Below are positions 2,916 to 10,277 of a stretch of DNA of 64,000 nucleotides, one piece after another. Position numbers and translations under genes: made by a program. Numbering within the stretch: position 1 is the first letter of the stretch; the number at the start of each line of letters is the position of its first letter. Under the pieces are notes generated by a model that ran no database searches, was not told where the DNA came from, and worked only from the letters and a program-made list of their open reading frames with translations. The stretch is from the human T2T-CHM13v2.0 reference genome, Homo sapiens, in assembly GCF_009914755.1 (NCBI RefSeq), contig NC_060931.1; one strand, given 5' to 3'.

Positions 2916-5265
2916 TGTATTAGTCCATTTTCACGCTGCTGATAAAGACATACCCAAAACTGAGGAGAAAAAGAGGTTTACTTGGACTTACAGTTGCACA
3001 TGGCTGGGGAGGCCTCAGAATCACAGTGGGAGGCAAAAGGTACTTCTTATATGGCAGCGGCAAGAGACAATGAGAGAGAAACAAAAGCAGAAACTCCTGA
3101 TAAACCCATCAGATCTCCTGAGACTTATTCACTATCACAAAAATAGCATGGGAAAGACCGGCCCCCATGATTCAATTACCTCCCCCTGGGTCCCTCCCAC
3201 AACACCTGGGAATTCTGGGAGATAACAATTCAAGTTGAGATTTGGGTGGGGGCACAGCCAAACCATATCATTCTGCCCCTGGCCCCTCCAAATCTCATGT
3301 TCTCACATTTCAAAACCAATCATGCCTTCCAAACAGTCCCCCAAAGTCTTAACTCATCTCAGCATTAATCCAAAAGTCCGTAGTCCAAAGTCTCATCTGA
3401 AACAAGGCAAGTCCCTTCTACCCATGATCCTGTAAAATCAAAAGCAAGCTAGTTACTTCCTACATACAATGGGGATACAGGTAATGGGTAAATACAGCCA
3501 TTCCAAATGGGAGAAACTGCCCACAACAAAGGCGTTACAAGCCCCATGCAAGTCCAAAATCCAGCGAGGCAGTCAAATTATAACGTTCCAAAATGATCTC
3601 CTCTGACTCCATGTCTCACATCCAGGTCACAATGATGCAAGAGGTAGGTTCCCTTAGTCTTGGGCAGCTCTGCCCCTGTGGCTTCACAGGGTATAGTCCC
3701 CACTCCTGGCTGCTTTCACGGGCTGGCGTTTAGGGTCTGTGGCTTTTCCAGGTGCACGGTACAAGCTGTCGGTGGATCTACCATTCTGGGGTCTGAAGGA
3801 CGGTGGCCTTCTTCGCACAGCTCCACTAGGTGGTGCCCCAGTAGGGATTCTGTGTGGGGGCTCCAACCCCACATTTCCCTTCACACTGCCCTAGCAGAGG
3901 TTCTCCATGAAGGCTCTGCCCCTGGAGCAAACTTTTGCCTGAGCATCCAGGTGATTCCATACATCTTCTGAAATCTAGATGGAGGTTCCCAAACCTCAAT
4001 TCTTGACTTCCATGCACCTGCAGGCTCAACACCACATGGAAGCTGCCAAGGTTTGGGGCTTGCACCCTCTGAAACCATGGGCAGAGCTGTATCTCGGCCC
4101 TTTTAGCAATGGCTGGAGCAGCTGGGATGCAGGGCACCAAGTCCCTAGGCTGCACACAGCATGGGGACCCTGGGCCTGGCCCACAAAACCATTTTTTCCT
4201 CCTAGTCTTCAGGGTCTGTGATGGGAGGGGCTGCCATGAAGACCTGTGACATGCCCTGGAGACATTTTCCCCATTGTTCTGGAGATTAACATTCAGCTCC
4301 CTGTAACTTATGCAAATTTCTGCAGCCAGCTTGAATTTCTCCTCAAAAAACAGGTTTCTCTCTTCTGCTGCATCAACTGGCTGCAAATTTTCCAAATTTT
4401 TATGCTGTTTCCCTTTTAAAATGAAATGCTTTTAACAGCACCCAAATCACCTCTTGAATGCTTTGCTGCTTAGAAATTTCTTCAGCCAGATACCCTAAAT
4501 CATCTCTCTCAAGATCAAAGTTCCACAAATCTCTGTGGTAGGGGCAAAATGCCACCAGTCTCTTTGCTAAAACATAACAACAGTCATCTTTGCTCCAGTT
4601 CCCTACAAGTTCCTCATCTCCATCTGAGACCACCTCAGCCTGGACCTTATTGTCCATAGCAGTATCCGCATTTTTGTCAAAGCCATTCAACAAGTCTTTA
4701 GGAAGCTCCAAACTTTCCCACATTTTCTTGTCTTCTTCTGAGCCCTCCAAACTGTTTCAACCTCTGCCTGTTACCCAGTTCCAAAGTCGCTTCCACATTT
4801 TCAGGTATCTTTTCAGCAGCGCCCCACTCCACTGGTACCAATTTACTGTATTAGTCAGTTTTCATACTGCTGATAAAGACATATCCAAGACTGGGAAGAA
4901 AAAGAGGTTTAACTGGACTTACAGTTGCACATGGCTGGGGAGGCCTCAGAATCATGGTGGGAGGCAAAAGGCACTTCTTACATGGCAGTGGCAAGAGAAA
5001 ACGAGAGAGAAGTAAAGGTGCAAACCCCTGATAAACCCATCAGATCTCGTGAGACTTAATTCACTATCATGAGAATAGCATGGGAATTCATCATTGAATC
5101 AATCATTGAAAAGAATTAGCAGAGGACTGATAAATAAGCATAGAAAGATAGGAAGAGCATTTCAGATTCAATTACCTCCCCGTGGGTCCCTCCCATAACA
5201 TGTGGGAATTCTGGGAGACACAATTCAAGTTGAGATTTGGGTGGGGACATAGCCAAACCATATCA
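2916..5265 (-). mobile_element. Full-length THE1A (MaLR): LTRs 2916-3270 and 4847-5265, internal region 3271-4846
   Basis: Two direct LTRs whose reverse complement begins TGATATGGTTTGGCT; the internal region carries the decayed MaLR ORF (EGSEED..MWESLELP..LLNGFD, 4400-4750). Confidence 0.92.
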
Positions 5266-5389
5266 AGGATAGTCATTTTTTCTCTGCTGTCATATTTATG
5301 GCAAGGTTCATTGTTCACTCATCTGGTCTCCATAGTTAAAACATTTCTTTGAAAATACTTTAACCAGATTCATAACATTTTATAAGATA

Positions 5390-5600
5390 TGTAATAAACT
5401 GAATGTTTGTGTTCTTTCCTCCACCCTCCCATTCACATAGGAAGCTCTAACCTCAATGCAATGGTATTGGGAGGTGGGGCATTTGGAAAATAATTGTGCT
5501 TAGATGAGGTCAGGAGGGTAGATCCCCCTTGATGGGATTAGTGCCCTTATAACTAGAGGAAGAGACACTAGACCTTTCTCTCTGCAGAATATGAGAAGGC
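5390..5600 (+). mobile_element. MLT1A-like MaLR LTR fragment
   Basis: ctgaatgtttgtg…ggtattgggaggtggggc…gatgggattagtgcccttataa. Confidence 0.7.
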
Positions 5601-5679
5601 ATATTAGTCTAAATTAGTCTAAAGAACATATAAGATGAGAAGAATAATTGGGGAGACAGTCTATACTTTTGGGAAGGGT

Positions 5680-7150
5680 GGTTTATTATCATAAAATCTC
5701 AATTCTCCCCCAAATTAACCTCAAGTAAGATTTCAGTTGGGTTTTCTGAGGATCTCTGAAAACCTCTATAATCTACATGGAAAAATAAAGGTCCACAAAT
5801 AACTAAATAAACGTTGAGAAAGAGGAGAAAAGTAGAAGTAGGGGAGGGAGTGTCCCAACCAAATCCATGGATGTACTACAAAGCCACTGTCATAGAAACA
5901 ATTTCGAGCAAGAACATTTAAATGGACAAGTAGAACAGAACAGAGAGCAAGCGTCAGAAACAGACTCATCTACTTATAAGAATGTAATACATAATAAAGT
6001 TGGTAGCATAAATCAAGAAAAGATGAACATTGGAGTTTAAAAACTGACATAATAGACTGACATAATTAAGTATCTACTCAATATCATTAGACTAAAAAAT
6101 AGACTCAGGATGGAAAATAAAGCTGTTAAGATAATATAGAAGAATTAATGTGTGGCAAAATTGTTACACATTTCTGTTCAGATTACTAGGAGACAATGTT
6201 TTCAATATCTAAAACTTACAGATAACTAACATTGAGATTATACAAGTGACAGGGCCAGATTTGCAACTCAAAAAGATCACCTAAGGGTGCAGCAAACTGT
6301 ATCTACTCTTTCTCTTCTTTTTCTTTTTCTTTTTGAGATAGGGTCTCATTCTGTCACCCAGGCTGGAGTACAGTGACATGATCCTGGCTCACAGCAGCCT
6401 CAACCTCCTTGGCTCAAGCCATCCTTCCACCTAGGCTTTTGCAAGGCAACAAGAAAGTTTTGCAAGGATACAAGAAAGTTTTGCAAGGCAACAGGAAAAT
6501 GAGAGTAACTCAACAGAAAAGTAGACAAAGGCATGATAGGCAATGTGAATAATCACATGACAACAAATTTACTGAGATCCTCAACCCACTAGTAACCAGA
6601 GAAATGAAAATTAAACAGCAGTGTAATACCGCTTTGAAGCTACTCAACTGATCAAAACATGCCCAGTGTTGTTGGGGACATGGGGCTACAAAGACTCTTG
6701 CACTGTGATGAACACACAGTCAGTGCAGCCATTCGAGGGAGCAACAGCCAGGATCTGGCTAAATAAGCACACCATCGCTTTCCAACCCCAGAATTCTGAT
6801 CTTGGATGTTCACATCCCACAGAAATTCTCACACAGGTCCGTAAAGGATGTATACAAGGCTGCTCATTACAGCATCGTTTGTGATACAGGGAAGGTGAAA
6901 GGATTTGGGTGGCCACCACTGAAAGTGAGAATAGGTAAAATATGATGAATTCAGACTGTGGAACAAAAGCACTGGTTAGAAGCAAAAGACTACAGATACA
7001 CAAAGGAAAATGAGTAGATGTTTAAAACTCGTCCTAATTTTAAAAAGTAAAAAGTGTAAAGTCGATAAAAGACAGCATTTATGTAAATTAAAAACACATA
7101 CAAACAGTGCAGAATTCGTTATAATAAGAAAGGAATAAGTACACTAAGGC
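5680..7150 (+). mobile_element. Ancient L1M (ORF2/3' end) fragments
   Basis: A-rich decayed L1 motifs (tactacaaagcc…atggacaagtagaacagaacagagagc; ctagtaaccagagaaatgaaaattaaa). Confidence 0.55.
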
Positions 7151-7355: not shown

Positions 7356-7547
7356 ATTAGCTCTAAAAAGTGTGGATGTTTGGAGGAGAGAATAAGAAAA
7401 GGCTTCACCAAGAAGGTAACAACAGAGATGGATCTTGGAGGACTTGTAAGAGTTCATAGAAAGTAGGGAAAAAGGGAGTGTAATCTGAGGGCAACTGTAA
7501 AAGCAAAGGTTTCTAAATACAAGCAAAAGATAAGAAAGGAGAGAATA

Positions 7548-7835
<288 letters not shown>

Positions 7836-8388
7836 GAGAAAGAAGGGAAAGAATTGATACAACTTGCTGCACCTTTAAGTGATCTTTTTGAGATGAAAAT
7901 CTGGCCCTGTCACTCTCCCTTAGATCCTTCAATGGATTACCTTGCCCTCAAAATAAAGATCAAATTCCTTAACATGGTCTACTAGGCCCACGTGATCCCT
8001 GGTCTCTGCTCACATCTTCAGTTTCATCTTCTGCTATGGGATTTCCACCTCTGTCCTCCAGATCTGAAATTTTCTAGCTTTCCTTCAATGACACTCCTGC
8101 CTCCAAATTACAGATTTCTCAAACCCTCCAGAAGAGGTCATTCTCAGGTTTTATATATATATACTTTCAGAAATCAAAAACAAAATTCTGAGACCTCCCA
8201 ACCATCTGAAAGGACACCTCCTCTAGGCCAAAGGCATTCCAAAGTTAAGCTGAAAAACTGTTTCAGGCTGTGATGGAAGTGGGGGTCAGACATGCCTCAT
8301 TATGCCCTCCTCTTTTTTGGAATTCAGGAAGAGCCGACCGGCACTAACATCAACACAGACCTAAGGCCTGATAAGAAACATTTGCCAT

Positions 8389-9501
8389 ATCTTTCCTGTT
8401 CCTCACCCTGATCACGCTTGATTTATTGATGGCAGTTCCACCAGGCCTAATCGCCACACACCAGCAAAGGCAGGCTATGCTATAGTACAAGCCACTAGCC
8501 CGCCTTTCAGAACCTCTCATTTCCTTTCCATCATGGAAATCTATCCTCAAGGAAATAATTTCTCAGTGTTCCATCTGCTATTCTACTATTCCTCAGGGAT
8601 TATTCAGGCCCCCTTCCTTCCCTACACAGCAAGCTCGAGGATTTGCCCCCACCCAGGACTGGCAAATTAGCTTTACTCAACATGTCCAGAGTCAGGAAAC
8701 TAAAATCTTAATCTCTCCCAATCTAGGTTCCCACGCCGCCCCTAATCCCGCTTGAAGCAGCCCTGAGAAACATCGCCCATTCTCTCTCCATATCACCCCC
8801 CAAAAATTTTTGCCACCCCAACACTTCAACACTATTTTGTTTCATTTTTCTTATTAATATAAGAAGGCAGGAATGTCAGGCCTCTGAGCCCAAGCCAAGC
8901 CATCACATCCCCTGTGACTTGCAGGTATAGGCCCAGATGGCCTGAAGTAACTGAAGAATCACAAAAGAAGTGAATATGCCCTGCCCCACCTTAACTGATG
9001 ACATTCCACCACAAAAGAAGTGTAAATGGCCGGTCCTTGCCTTAACTGATGACATTACCTTGTGAAAGTCCTTTTCCTGGCTCATCCTGGCTCAAAAGCA
9101 CCCCCACTGAGCACCTTGCGACCCCCACTCCTGCCCACTGAGCACCTTGCGACCCCCACTCCTACCCACCAGAGAACAAACCCCCTTTGACTGTAATTTT
9201 CCTTTACCTACCCAAATCCTATAAAACGGTCCCACCCTTATCTCCCTTCACTGACTCTCTTTTCGGACTCAGCCCGCCTGCACCCAGGTGAAATAAACAG
9301 CCATGTTGCTCACACAAAGCCTGTTTGGTGGTCTCTTCACACGGACGCGCATGAAAATAATACCTACCTCATACATCTGTCATGTAACACTTTAGTGTTC
9401 TATATTTGCATAGCTGTATCCTTCCATTAGTTTGTATAGAGCTGACTTAGTATTTTTGGTTGAATAAATGTTGAATGACCTGGCAAAAAAAAAAAAAAAA
9501 A
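8389..9501 (+). mobile_element. HERV-H processed retrocopy: pol fragment + pre-LTR region + complete LTR7 + 3' transduction + poly(A)
   Basis: HERV-H internal sequence 8389-8873 ending in the PPT AAGAAGGCAGGAA; LTR 8874-9356; non-viral 9357-9484 with AATAAA at 9463; A17 tail; flanking repeats AAGAAACATTT(G/A)CCAT at 8373-8388 and 9500-9515. Confidence 0.88.
8874..9356 (+). mobile_element. LTR7 (HERV-H LTR), full U3-R-U5
   Basis: TGTCAGGCCTCTGAGCCCAAG...CACACGGACGCGCATGAAA; TATAAAA at 9220, AATAAA at 9292. Confidence 0.93.
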
Positions 9502-10055
9502 GAAACATTTACCATCTATTCTCTCTGAAACCTGCCACTTGGAAGCTTCATCTACATGATAAAACCTTGGTCTCCACAACCCCTTAACATATCCCAGACA
9601 TTCCTATTGATAATAATTATTTTGACCAGTTACAAATCAGAAAATTTATAAATCTACCTATGACCTGCAAGCCCTCCTACCCCCGCCCTCAAATTGTCCC
9701 ACCCTTCCAGATTGAACCAATGTAAATCTTACATGTATTGATTGATGTATTATGTCTCCCCAAAAATGTATAAAAGCAAGCTGTACCCTGACCACCTCGG
9801 GCACGTCATCGGAACCTCCTGAAACCCTGTCATGGGTATATCCTTAACTCTGGCAAAATAAACTTTCTAAACTTTCTTTGAGACTTGTCTCAGGTACTTT
9901 TGAGTTCACACTTTTTAGCATCCATCAAAATTATAGTAATTTATTATTAAGTAATCATTTGTTTAATGTTTATGCGGGCATAACCTAGGTCCTTGAGATC
10001 AAAGACCATGTGCACAACTATATCCCTAGCCCCTCATTCAACGCTTTGCACAATA

Positions 10056-10277
10056 TGGGTTGAGTATCCCTTATCTGAAATGCTTGGGACCAGAAGTGTT
10101 TTGGATTTTGGATTTCTTTGGATTTGGGAATATTTGCAGGTACTTAGCCAGTTGAGCGTCCCAAGTCCAAAAATCCCAAATGTCAAATGTTCCAATGAAC
10201 ACTTCCTTTGAGTATCATATTTCACAATTTGGAGCATTTTGGATTTGAGATTTGGGGATTAGGTCTGCTAAACCTAT
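10056..10277 (+). mobile_element. Tigger4a/MER46 (Zombi) MITE
   Basis: ggttgagtatcccttatctgaaatgcttgggaccagaagtgttttggatttt… with a degenerate inverted terminus. Confidence 0.75.

What the first reader, a model, noticed from the sequence alone, without database searches (positions are those of the whole stretch)
8373..9515. L1-mobilised HERV-H read-through transcript with a 3' transduction, delivering a complete LTR7
Seen: a 5'-truncated HERV-H pol fragment, PPT and complete LTR7 including U5 (8874-9356), then ~128 bp of non-viral DNA with its own AATAAA (9463) 16 nt before an A17 tail. The whole unit is flanked by a 16-bp TSD (one mismatch) starting at an L1-endonuclease-like T|AAGAAA site, inside a MER4 LTR. 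Known: integrase-made proviruses have short TSDs and no poly(A), and ordinary ERV processed pseudogenes end at the R/U5 boundary. Inference: the source provirus read through its LTR poly(A) signal into flanking DNA and L1 copied that RNA in trans. This route spreads promoter-competent LTR7 without viral integrase, and the transduced tag barcodes the donor locus. A repeat annotator would probably show only separate HERVH-int/LTR7 pieces.
Basis: partly seen in the sequence, partly recalled or inferred. Interest (0 to 1): 0.8.

Follow-up and report, generated by a model that had tools for sequence, protein, structure and literature searches.

The report
L1-copied HERV-H read-through transcript, donor found
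A piece of the endogenous retrovirus HERV-H, with a complete LTR7 and 128 bases of chromosome 4 DNA attached, was copied into chromosome 7 by the LINE-1 machinery rather than by viral integration, and its source on chromosome 4 can still be recognised.

Summary
Window 8373-9515 is one unit:
- a 16-bp target-site duplication (15 of 16 identical);
- 484 bp of HERV-H internal sequence;
- a complete 483-bp LTR7;
- a 128-bp non-viral tag with its own AATAAA 16 nt before a poly(A) tail.

The tag has exactly one other match in this genome, G000 C4:87179832-87179962 (-). There it directly follows an LTR7 flanked by a 5-bp duplication ATAAT. That copy has no poly(A), and the chromosome 4 sequence continues past the tag.

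In other copies of the host LTR family, the two halves flanking the insert are contiguous with a single copy of the duplicated 16-mer.

- The chromosome 4 donor is now a solo LTR, so the chromosome 7 copy holds internal sequence no longer present at the source.
- No sibling copy shares the tag.
- The locus has no paralogue in this assembly.
- The middle exon of lncRNA OR2A1-AS1 lies wholly inside the tag on the opposite strand, and its acceptor tract is the complement of the poly(A) tail.
- 30 other loci carry HERV-H ending at the normal LTR7 poly(A) site plus an A-tail, so L1 copying of HERV-H RNA is recurrent.

Verdict: real and well supported, and a new variant of a known kind. L1 involvement and the RNA's promoter are inferred.

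The parts
8171..8372 (+). 5' half of the older host LTR that received the insertion (family name not tested)
   Evidence: query 312-513 matches many dispersed copies at 80-84%; contiguous with the 3' half in other copies.
8373..8388 (+). 5' copy of the 16-bp target-site duplication, AAGAAACATTTGCCAT
   Evidence: the family copies read A where this copy has G (8384), so the G arose after insertion. Both copies share a C (8385 and 9512) where the family copies shown mostly read A.
8390..8706 (+). HERV-H internal fragment (pol-region remnant with broken frames); 5' truncation point of the retrocopy
   Evidence: 96-97% identity to many HERV-H loci over query 2-318; frames are broken; no Pfam match.
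8707..8873 (+). HERV-H sequence just upstream of the 3' LTR, joined to the previous piece by a roughly 864-bp deletion; holds a viral splice acceptor (AG at 8723-8724) and the purine tract before the LTR
   Evidence: the two pieces lie about 864 bp apart in L031 and L032; only 3 other loci match across the junction; the chromosome 22 copy is spliced exactly at 8724|8725.
8874..9356 (+). Complete LTR7: U3 about 8874-9249, R about 9250-9314, U5 9315-9356; TATAAAA at 9220-9226; own AATAAA at 9292-9297, read through
   Evidence: 8 substitutions and 1 indel across 483 bp against the chromosome 4 LTR, with the same ends. The start of R is taken from the 5' end of the chromosome 22 copy. The end of R is taken from the 30 tailed loci that end in GCTCAC.
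9357..9484 (+). Transduced non-viral tag from chromosome 4, with AATAAA at 9463-9468
   Evidence: the only other match is C4:87179832-87179962 (-), 98% identity; 0 substitutions and one 3-bp indel.
9485..9499 (+). Untemplated poly(A) tail of 15 A; the run continues 2 A into the duplicated 16-mer
   Evidence: chromosome 4 has no A-run here.
9500..9515 (+). 3' copy of the target-site duplication, AAGAAACATTTACCAT
9516..9911 (+). 3' half of the host LTR
   Evidence: query 1-395 matches many copies at 79-83%..
9368..9479 (-). Middle exon of lncRNA OR2A1-AS1, lying entirely inside the tag. The acceptor AG (9481-9480) follows a T-run that is the complement of the poly(A) tail. The donor GT (9367-9366) lies in GAG|GTAGGT.
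   Evidence: Exon coordinates come from the hub's RefSeq table. Splice signals were read on the minus strand.

Best explanation
This is a 5'-truncated retrocopy of a HERV-H read-through RNA, inserted by target-primed reverse transcription of the LINE-1 type.

Proposed sequence of events:
1. A HERV-H provirus sat at G000 C4:87.18 Mb on the minus strand. It had been integrated by the viral route, with a 5-bp duplication ATAAT.
2. An RNA crossing its 3' end ignored the LTR7 poly(A) site (window equivalent 9313/9314). It ran through U5 (42 nt) and 128 nt of flanking DNA.
3. That RNA was cleaved and polyadenylated 16 nt after a flanking AATAAA, at a CA.
4. L1 ORF2p nicked the bottom strand of an older LTR on chromosome 7 at TTCTT|AT. 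It primed on the poly(A) tail and copied the last 1,095 nt of the RNA (967 viral plus 128 tag). This left a 16-bp target-site duplication.
5. Later the chromosome 4 provirus collapsed to a solo LTR by LTR-LTR recombination.
6. On chromosome 7, the tag plus the T-run complementary to the tail came to be used as an exon of OR2A1-AS1.

Shown: the anatomy, the donor locus, the direction of copying, the empty-site structure and the splice signals.

Inferred: that L1 was the enzyme, that the RNA started at the provirus's own 5' LTR, that chromosome 4 once held the internal part, and the age.
For: Hallmarks of an L1-type retrocopy:
- A 16-bp duplication, 15 of 16 identical, directly abuts the first viral base and the A-tail.
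- 10 intact family copies shown read CTGAT, then one 16-mer, then (in most) CTATTCTC.
- In 12 of the 18 copies with both flanks, the flank overlap is exactly one 16-mer.

Donor:
- The tag has 2 genomic matches in all: itself and C4:87179832-87179962.
- At chromosome 4 the order is ...TTAATAAT|LTR7|ATAATACC..., followed by the tag and then unrelated sequence with no A-run.
- The chromosome 7 and chromosome 4 LTRs differ by 8 substitutions and 1 indel in 483 bp. The tag differs by 0 substitutions and one 3-bp indel.
- Polarised against 5 related LTRs, 4 substitutions and the indel fall on the chromosome 7 lineage and 4 substitutions on the chromosome 4 lineage. This fits two copies diverging from one source.
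- Of the LTRs compared, chromosome 4 is the nearest full-length LTR to chromosome 7: 8/483, against 13-20 for chromosomes 10, 15 and 19. The chromosome 22 tailed copy is about as near (7/445, no U5).

The viral part comes from one lineage:
- Three proviruses share the internal deletion junction, at 95-97% identity.
- Their 3' LTRs are also closer to this LTR (88-91% with gaps) than those of L031 and L032 (about 81%).

Read-through:
- 30 other loci carry the same LTR7 R sequence ending in GCTC(AC) followed by A10 or more, against 0 hits for the reversed-pattern control.
- Most of them carry HERV-H internal sequence plus U3-R upstream.
- This fixes the normal cleavage site, which the chromosome 7 copy overruns by 170 nt.

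HERV-H RNA as a retrocopy substrate:
- 7 of those 30 loci show a 13-22-nt flanking repeat within the 1.5 kb held, against 0 of 30 in a control shifted by 200 bp.
- The chromosome 22 copy starts at R, is spliced and has a flanking repeat.
Against: - The nick site TTCTT|AT is only L1-like, matching about 4 of 6 positions of the TTTT|AA consensus. The consensus is recalled, not tested.
- The tail is short (15 A).
- Chromosome 4 holds no HERV-H internal sequence now. That the 484-bp internal piece came from chromosome 4 is therefore inferred from colinearity, not seen.
- The copy is 5'-truncated, so the RNA's start site is unknown.
- No ape genome or human population data could be consulted, so the true empty site and the age are untested.
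- The 31-bp tandem duplication in the LTR is not a private marker of the donor and copy: the junction occurs at 45 sites at 2 or fewer mismatches.
- 23 of the 30 tailed HERV-H loci showed no flanking repeat within the 1.5 kb I held. The chromosome 22 locus is one of them: its repeat was found by eye in a longer stretch. The class is only partly characterised.
Confidence: 0.9

Rival explanations
1. Same L1-type retrocopy, but the template was a host or long non-coding transcript that merely ran through the chromosome 4 provirus. For example, an intron-retaining or prematurely polyadenylated RNA of a gene on the same strand, rather than an RNA started at the provirus's own 5' LTR.
For: The copy is 5'-truncated about 4 kb short of where a 5' LTR would lie in the sibling provirus (it aligns to the last 937 bp of a 4,996-bp element). 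The start of the RNA is therefore invisible. I also saw an exon-like stretch with AG and GT borders about 1 kb downstream on the same strand at chromosome 4.
Against: That exon-like stretch matched nothing meaningful (best E 0.31, a chance hit). The gene content of the chromosome 4 locus could not be read with these tools. The LTR carries the 81%-identical tandem block (family D3) that Carter et al. [quoted passage not shown] This makes self-driven transcription plausible. 30 canonical tailed copies show that HERV-H RNAs are copied in their own right.
Confidence: 0.15
2. A chimeric retrocopy made by template switching. Reverse transcription began on a read-through RNA of an already solo chromosome 4 LTR, then jumped within the LTR to an unrelated HERV-H RNA.
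For: Chromosome 4 is a solo LTR today. Template switching by L1 reverse transcriptase is known (recalled, not tested).
Against: The LTR-internal junction at 8873|8874 is the ordinary proviral junction, and alignment to the sibling proviruses runs across it without a break (8390-9356 in one alignment). The LTR and the internal part point to the same small lineage. The 9 differences between chromosome 7 and chromosome 4 are spread over both lineages and show no block pattern.
Confidence: 0.04
3. A DNA-level copy from chromosome 4 to chromosome 7 with no RNA step: a duplicative transposition, or capture of a fragment during double-strand-break repair.
For: Two loci share 611 bp at about 98% identity. 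The window lies near known duplicated genes, according to the hub table.
Against: The shared stretch ends exactly 16 nt after an AATAAA, at a CA. On chromosome 7 it is followed by 15 untemplated A that are absent at chromosome 4. The unit is bracketed by a 16-bp duplication of a site that is single in other family copies. No flanking chromosome 4 sequence beyond the cleavage site was copied.
Confidence: 0.01

Closest known systems
HERV-W processed pseudogenes made by LINE-1 (Pavlicek et al. 2002, cited but not readable here; Grandi et al. 2016, PMC5016936, passages seen; Grandi and Tramontano 2017, PMC5537654, abstract seen)
   Same: Retroviral RNA copied in trans. It shares the poly(A) tail, the long target-site duplication, the L1-like target and the 5' truncation.
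   Different: The family is HERV-H, not HERV-W. The 3' end lies 170 nt beyond the R/U5 border, so the LTR is complete (U3-R-U5) and carries host DNA. The 2017 review abstract calls HERV-W the sole HERV group mobilised by L1. That does not fit the 30 tailed HERV-H loci.
3' transduction by L1 and SVA elements
   Same: The element's own weak poly(A) site is bypassed and a downstream genomic site is used. The flanking tag travels with the copy and identifies the source locus.
   Different: The transducing element here is an endogenous retrovirus that does not encode the machinery that moved it. The source has since lost its interior.
Read-through of the retroviral 3' LTR poly(A) signal, as in models of oncogene capture (recalled; not read here)
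   Same: Transcription continues through U5 of the 3' LTR into host DNA.
   Different: In those models the read-through RNA is packaged and copied by the viral enzyme. Here the product carries the marks of target-primed reverse transcription.
Exonisation of antisense Alu elements, where the poly(A) tail supplies the polypyrimidine tract (recalled; not read here)
   Same: The complement of a retrocopy's A-tail sits directly before an AG acceptor of an annotated exon.
   Different: The exon body is a transduced fragment of chromosome 4 (MIR-like by recall), not an Alu.

Membership tests
L1-type (target-primed) retrocopy | Target-site duplication of about 7-20 bp flanking the whole insert | tested here: met
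   16 bp, 15 of 16 identical. A single copy is present in intact family members.
L1-type (target-primed) retrocopy | 3' poly(A) tail not encoded at the source, 10-30 nt after a poly(A) signal | tested here: met
   15 untemplated A, 16 nt after AATAAA 9463-9468. Chromosome 4 has no A-run there.
L1-type (target-primed) retrocopy | Insertion at a TTTT|AA-like endonuclease site | tested here: inconclusive
   The bottom strand reads TTCTT|AT. This is similar but not exact, and the consensus is recalled.
L1-type (target-primed) retrocopy | Empty orthologous site in an outgroup species | not testable with these tools
   No primate genomes were available. Contiguity in other copies of the host repeat serves as a stand-in.
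3' transduction | A source locus where the tag directly follows the element and continues into unique DNA | tested here: met
   C4:87179832-87179962 follows an LTR7 directly. It is the only other match.
Canonical ERV processed pseudogene (R-U5 ... U3-R-An) | 3' end at the R/U5 border | tested here: not met
   The copy continues 42 nt of U5 plus the 128-nt tag beyond the site used by the 30 tailed HERV-H loci.
Integrase-made HERV-H insertion | Short (5-bp) duplication directly at the LTR ends, with no poly(A) | tested here: not met
   Not met at chromosome 7. Met at the chromosome 4 donor: ATAAT on both sides.
LTR7up / LTR7u1 subfamilies (Carter et al. 2022) | Tandem block 2a/2b duplication, about 81% alike | tested here: met
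   8960-8986 and 9010-9036, 81% identical (family D3). The paper's passage was seen. Other defining motifs were not tested, so membership is only suggested.
   No repeat library was available. It is a dispersed repeat of about 615 bp, with 1584 and 3268 first-look candidates.

The most novel reading that the evidence does not exclude
HERV-H RNA is a recurrent substrate of LINE-1, not an exception. There are at least 30 tailed copies in one complete genome, including spliced and full-length ones. A read-through subclass moves complete LTR7 regulatory units together with host DNA. These copies act as dated, barcoded records of proviruses that have since collapsed. They would be miscounted as solo or partial LTR7 in family censuses, and they can seed new exons and regulatory elements. 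Here that means an OR2A1-AS1 exon and an annotated enhancer 12 kb upstream of ARHGEF5. If this class is unreported, the statement that HERV-W is the only L1-mobilised HERV group needs revising.
Probability: 0.4. Interest if true: 0.6.

Novelty: new variant of a known kind. Interest (0 to 1): 0.5.

Why it matters
- **A second route of spread for LTR7.** LTR7 is a major early-embryo promoter and enhancer family. This locus shows it can spread with no viral integrase and with all three LTR parts intact.
- **A barcode for the source.** The tag names the source locus outright, which is rarely possible for retroviral copies.
- **A lost provirus interior.** Because the source is now a solo LTR, the copy holds 484 bp of a provirus interior no longer present at its own locus. 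It also gives a time bracket: the provirus was still intact when the copy was made.
- **Family censuses.** Counts of 'solo' versus 'proviral' LTR7 used in evolutionary studies would misfile such copies.
- **New gene parts.** One retrocopy event supplied both the exon body and the splice-acceptor tract of an annotated lncRNA exon.

Tried and rejected
- **Rfam scan** of 7800-10200 at E up to 1: 0 matches.
- **Pfam** on three open stretches of the viral fragment: 0 families in 3 of 3. The 'pol' label rests on DNA homology only.
- **Paralogue or empty site within the 7q35 duplicons**: the unique left flank 7860-8170 matched only itself, so there is no in-genome empty site.
- **Solo LTR as a 5'/3' chimera.** I considered whether the clustering of all 8 substitutions in the first 390 bp of the LTR marks the chromosome 4 solo LTR as a 5'/3' recombinant. 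I dropped this: polarising the sites shows the changes split 4 and 4 between the two lineages.
- **31-bp tandem duplication (9103-9164) as a private donor marker**: rejected. The junction occurs at 45 sites at 2 or fewer mismatches. A second variant 30-mer is exact at 7 sites.
- **Gene context of the chromosome 4 donor.** An exon-like stretch was translated and searched against solved structures. Only a chance hit at E 0.31 came back, so the context stays unknown.
- **Dimorphic HERV-H list** of Thomas et al. 2018 (passages). It lists one chromosome 4 solo LTR, a 362-bp interval at an hg38 position that by my recalled coordinate offset is about 7 Mb from the donor. I take it to be a different locus, not verified.
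I used the 3-kb loci already held.
- **Pavlicek et al. 2002**: not held under DOI or PMC id. Whether it mentions HERV-H copies is unknown to me.
- **Literature.** Searches found no paper describing HERV-H processed pseudogenes or linking OR2A1-AS1 to HERV-H. Subscription journals and supplements were not covered.

Full report
**What is there**

Reading 7400-10200 and a repeat search confirm the unit.
- The 16-mer AAGAAACATTTGCCAT (8373-8388) recurs as AAGAAACATTTACCAT (9500-9515).
- Between the two copies lie, in order: HERV-H internal sequence from 8390; an LTR7 (8874-9356); 128 bp of non-viral DNA (9357-9484) with AATAAA at 9463-9468; and an A-run starting 16 nt later.
- The run is 17 A long. 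Its last two bases belong to the repeated 16-mer, so 15 A are untemplated.
- On the bottom strand the target reads TTCTT|AT. This resembles the L1 endonuclease consensus (recalled) without matching it exactly.

**The viral part**
- The 485-bp stretch 8389-8873 found 2111 first-look candidates in the genome.
- Most of the 40 scored matches cover only 8390-8706.
- Three loci match across the whole stretch at 95-97% identity: C4:23.7 Mb, C3:115.1 Mb and C5:148.4 Mb.
- In two ordinary HERV-H copies the two pieces lie about 864 bp apart. The source therefore belonged to a small deleted subgroup.
- Against one of the sibling proviruses, 4,996 bp from LTR to LTR, the chromosome 7 copy aligns to the last 937 bp. 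About 4 kb is missing at its 5' end.
- Reading frames are broken and Pfam finds nothing.

**The donor**
- The tag has exactly one other match in the 3.1-Gb assembly: C4:87179832-87179962 on the minus strand, at 98% identity.
- There the sequence reads ...TTAATAAT, then the LTR7, then ATAATACC..., with the tag following directly.
- Past the tag's last base, chromosome 4 continues with unrelated sequence and no A-run.
- So chromosome 4 is the source and chromosome 7 the copy. The copy ends at a CA 16 nt after AATAAA, as expected for cleavage and polyadenylation.
- Upstream of the chromosome 4 LTR there is host DNA, not HERV-H interior. The donor is a solo LTR in this genome.
- I recognise the flank as an antisense MIR from memory only.

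**How alike the two copies are**
- The LTRs differ by 8 substitutions and a 1-bp indel in 483 bp. The tag differs by a 3-bp indel only.
- Polarised against five related LTRs, 4 substitutions and the indel fall on the chromosome 7 lineage and 4 substitutions on the chromosome 4 lineage.
- About half of the substitutions are CpG transitions, by my reading of that alignment.
- Among the LTRs compared, chromosome 4 is the nearest full-length LTR to chromosome 7: 8/483, against 13-20 differences for chromosomes 10, 15 and 19.
- With a recalled neutral rate, this suggests an age of a few to about 13 million years. The estimate is crude.

**The empty site**
- No paralogue of the unique flank exists, so other copies of the host LTR served as a stand-in.
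- Of 22 copies examined, 18 carry both flanks.
- In 12 of these the left and right alignments overlap exactly as one 16-mer requires. One is off by a base and 5 carry other indels.
- Ten copies printed read CTGAT, then one 16-mer, then in most of them CTATTCTC.
- The family copies read A where the 5' copy has G. The mismatch therefore arose after insertion.

**Context: the normal 3' end**
- A pattern for the LTR7 R region followed by ten or more A found 30 distinct loci, against 0 for the reversed control.
- Most carry HERV-H interior and U3-R upstream, with tails of 10-47 A.
- All end after GCTC(AC), equivalent to window 9313/9314. The chromosome 7 copy overruns this site by 42 nt of U5 plus the tag.
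- Within the 1.5 kb of upstream sequence held, 7 of the 30 show a flanking repeat of 13-22 nt. A control shifted by 200 bp gave 0 of 30.
- The other 23 could not be resolved.

**The chromosome 22 copy**
- It starts at the first bases of R and runs R-U5 ... U3-R-A14.
- It is spliced from AAG|GTAAGC to an acceptor that corresponds to window 8724|8725.
- It is flanked by AAGAAAAATGG on both sides.
- Its LTR is 7/445 from chromosome 7 and 7/446 from chromosome 4. That is nearer than to the chromosome 10 or 19 relatives, so it may be a sibling from the same source. This is not proven.

**A consequence at chromosome 7**
- The hub table places the middle exon of OR2A1-AS1 at 9368-9479 on the minus strand, inside the tag.
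- On that strand the exon is preceded by TTTCTTTTTTTTTTTTTTTTTTGCCAG| and followed by |GTAGGTATT.
- The pyrimidine tract is the complement of the poly(A) tail and of the first bases of the duplicated 16-mer.
- Chromosome 4 lacks that tract.
- RefSeq also marks 8827-9748 as an enhancer. I did not look into the basis for that annotation.

**Literature**
- A 2017 review abstract calls HERV-W the sole HERV group mobilised by L1.
- Vargiu et al. 2016 state that processed pseudogenes were not separated from proviruses in their census.
- Thomas et al. 2018 excluded such copies for HERV-W only.
- Passages retrieved from two recent HERV-H papers say nothing on L1-made copies.
- Seven searches found no description of HERV-H processed pseudogenes.
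- Pavlicek et al. 2002 could not be read, so priority cannot be settled here.
- Carter et al. 2022 describe an 81%-alike tandem block in the 7up/7u1 subfamilies. This LTR has such a block (family D3), which fits a highly transcribed source.

**Verdict**

The mechanism is an expected combination of known processes, so surprise is moderate. The value lies in four things:
- the named donor;
- the retained fragment of a provirus interior no longer at its source locus;
- the exon built from the tag and tail;
- the evidence that HERV-H RNA is copied by this route repeatedly.

Noticed in passing
window 9368-9479 (-), with 9480-9501 and 9366-9367: The middle exon of lncRNA OR2A1-AS1 lies wholly inside the transduced tag. 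Its acceptor AG follows a T-run that is the complement of the retrocopy's poly(A) tail, and its donor sits in GAG|GTAGGT. The chromosome 4 source lacks the T-run.
   Followed up: partly
30 loci, L045-L074 (for example G000 C2:153987087, C6:81691188, C14:33487229): HERV-H copies that end at the normal LTR7 poly(A) site followed by tails of 10-47 A. 7 of 30 have a 13-22-nt flanking repeat within 1.5 kb, against 0 of 30 in a shifted control. This does not fit the review statement that only HERV-W is mobilised by L1.
   Followed up: partly
L076 about 3624-6460 (G000 C22:28203623-28206459): A full-length, spliced HERV-H processed copy. It starts at R, has its intron removed between AAG|GTAAGC and the acceptor equal to window 8724|8725, ends in R plus A14, and is flanked by AAGAAAAATGG. 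Its LTR is 7/445 from the chromosome 7 copy and 7/446 from the chromosome 4 donor, so it may be a sibling from the same source.
   Followed up: partly
window 8706|8707; L028, L029, L030: The source belonged to a small HERV-H subgroup with a roughly 864-bp deletion before the 3' LTR. In this genome only three proviruses share it (C4:23.7 Mb, C3:115.1 Mb, C5:148.4 Mb).
   Followed up: partly
window 9103-9164: A 31-bp tandem duplication inside the LTR7 (97% between units). Its junction occurs at 45 genomic sites at 2 or fewer mismatches, so it marks an LTR7 variant rather than this locus.
   Followed up: yes
window 8827-9748: A RefSeq 'enhancer' feature covers the LTR7, the tag and part of the host LTR, about 12 kb upstream of ARHGEF5 on the same strand. 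I did not look into the basis of the annotation.
   Followed up: no
L058, L059, L060 (G000 C9:42.4, 47.6 and 77.3 Mb): Three of the tailed HERV-H loci share nearly the same 3' flank, so they look like one retrocopy later multiplied by segmental duplication on chromosome 9.
   Followed up: no
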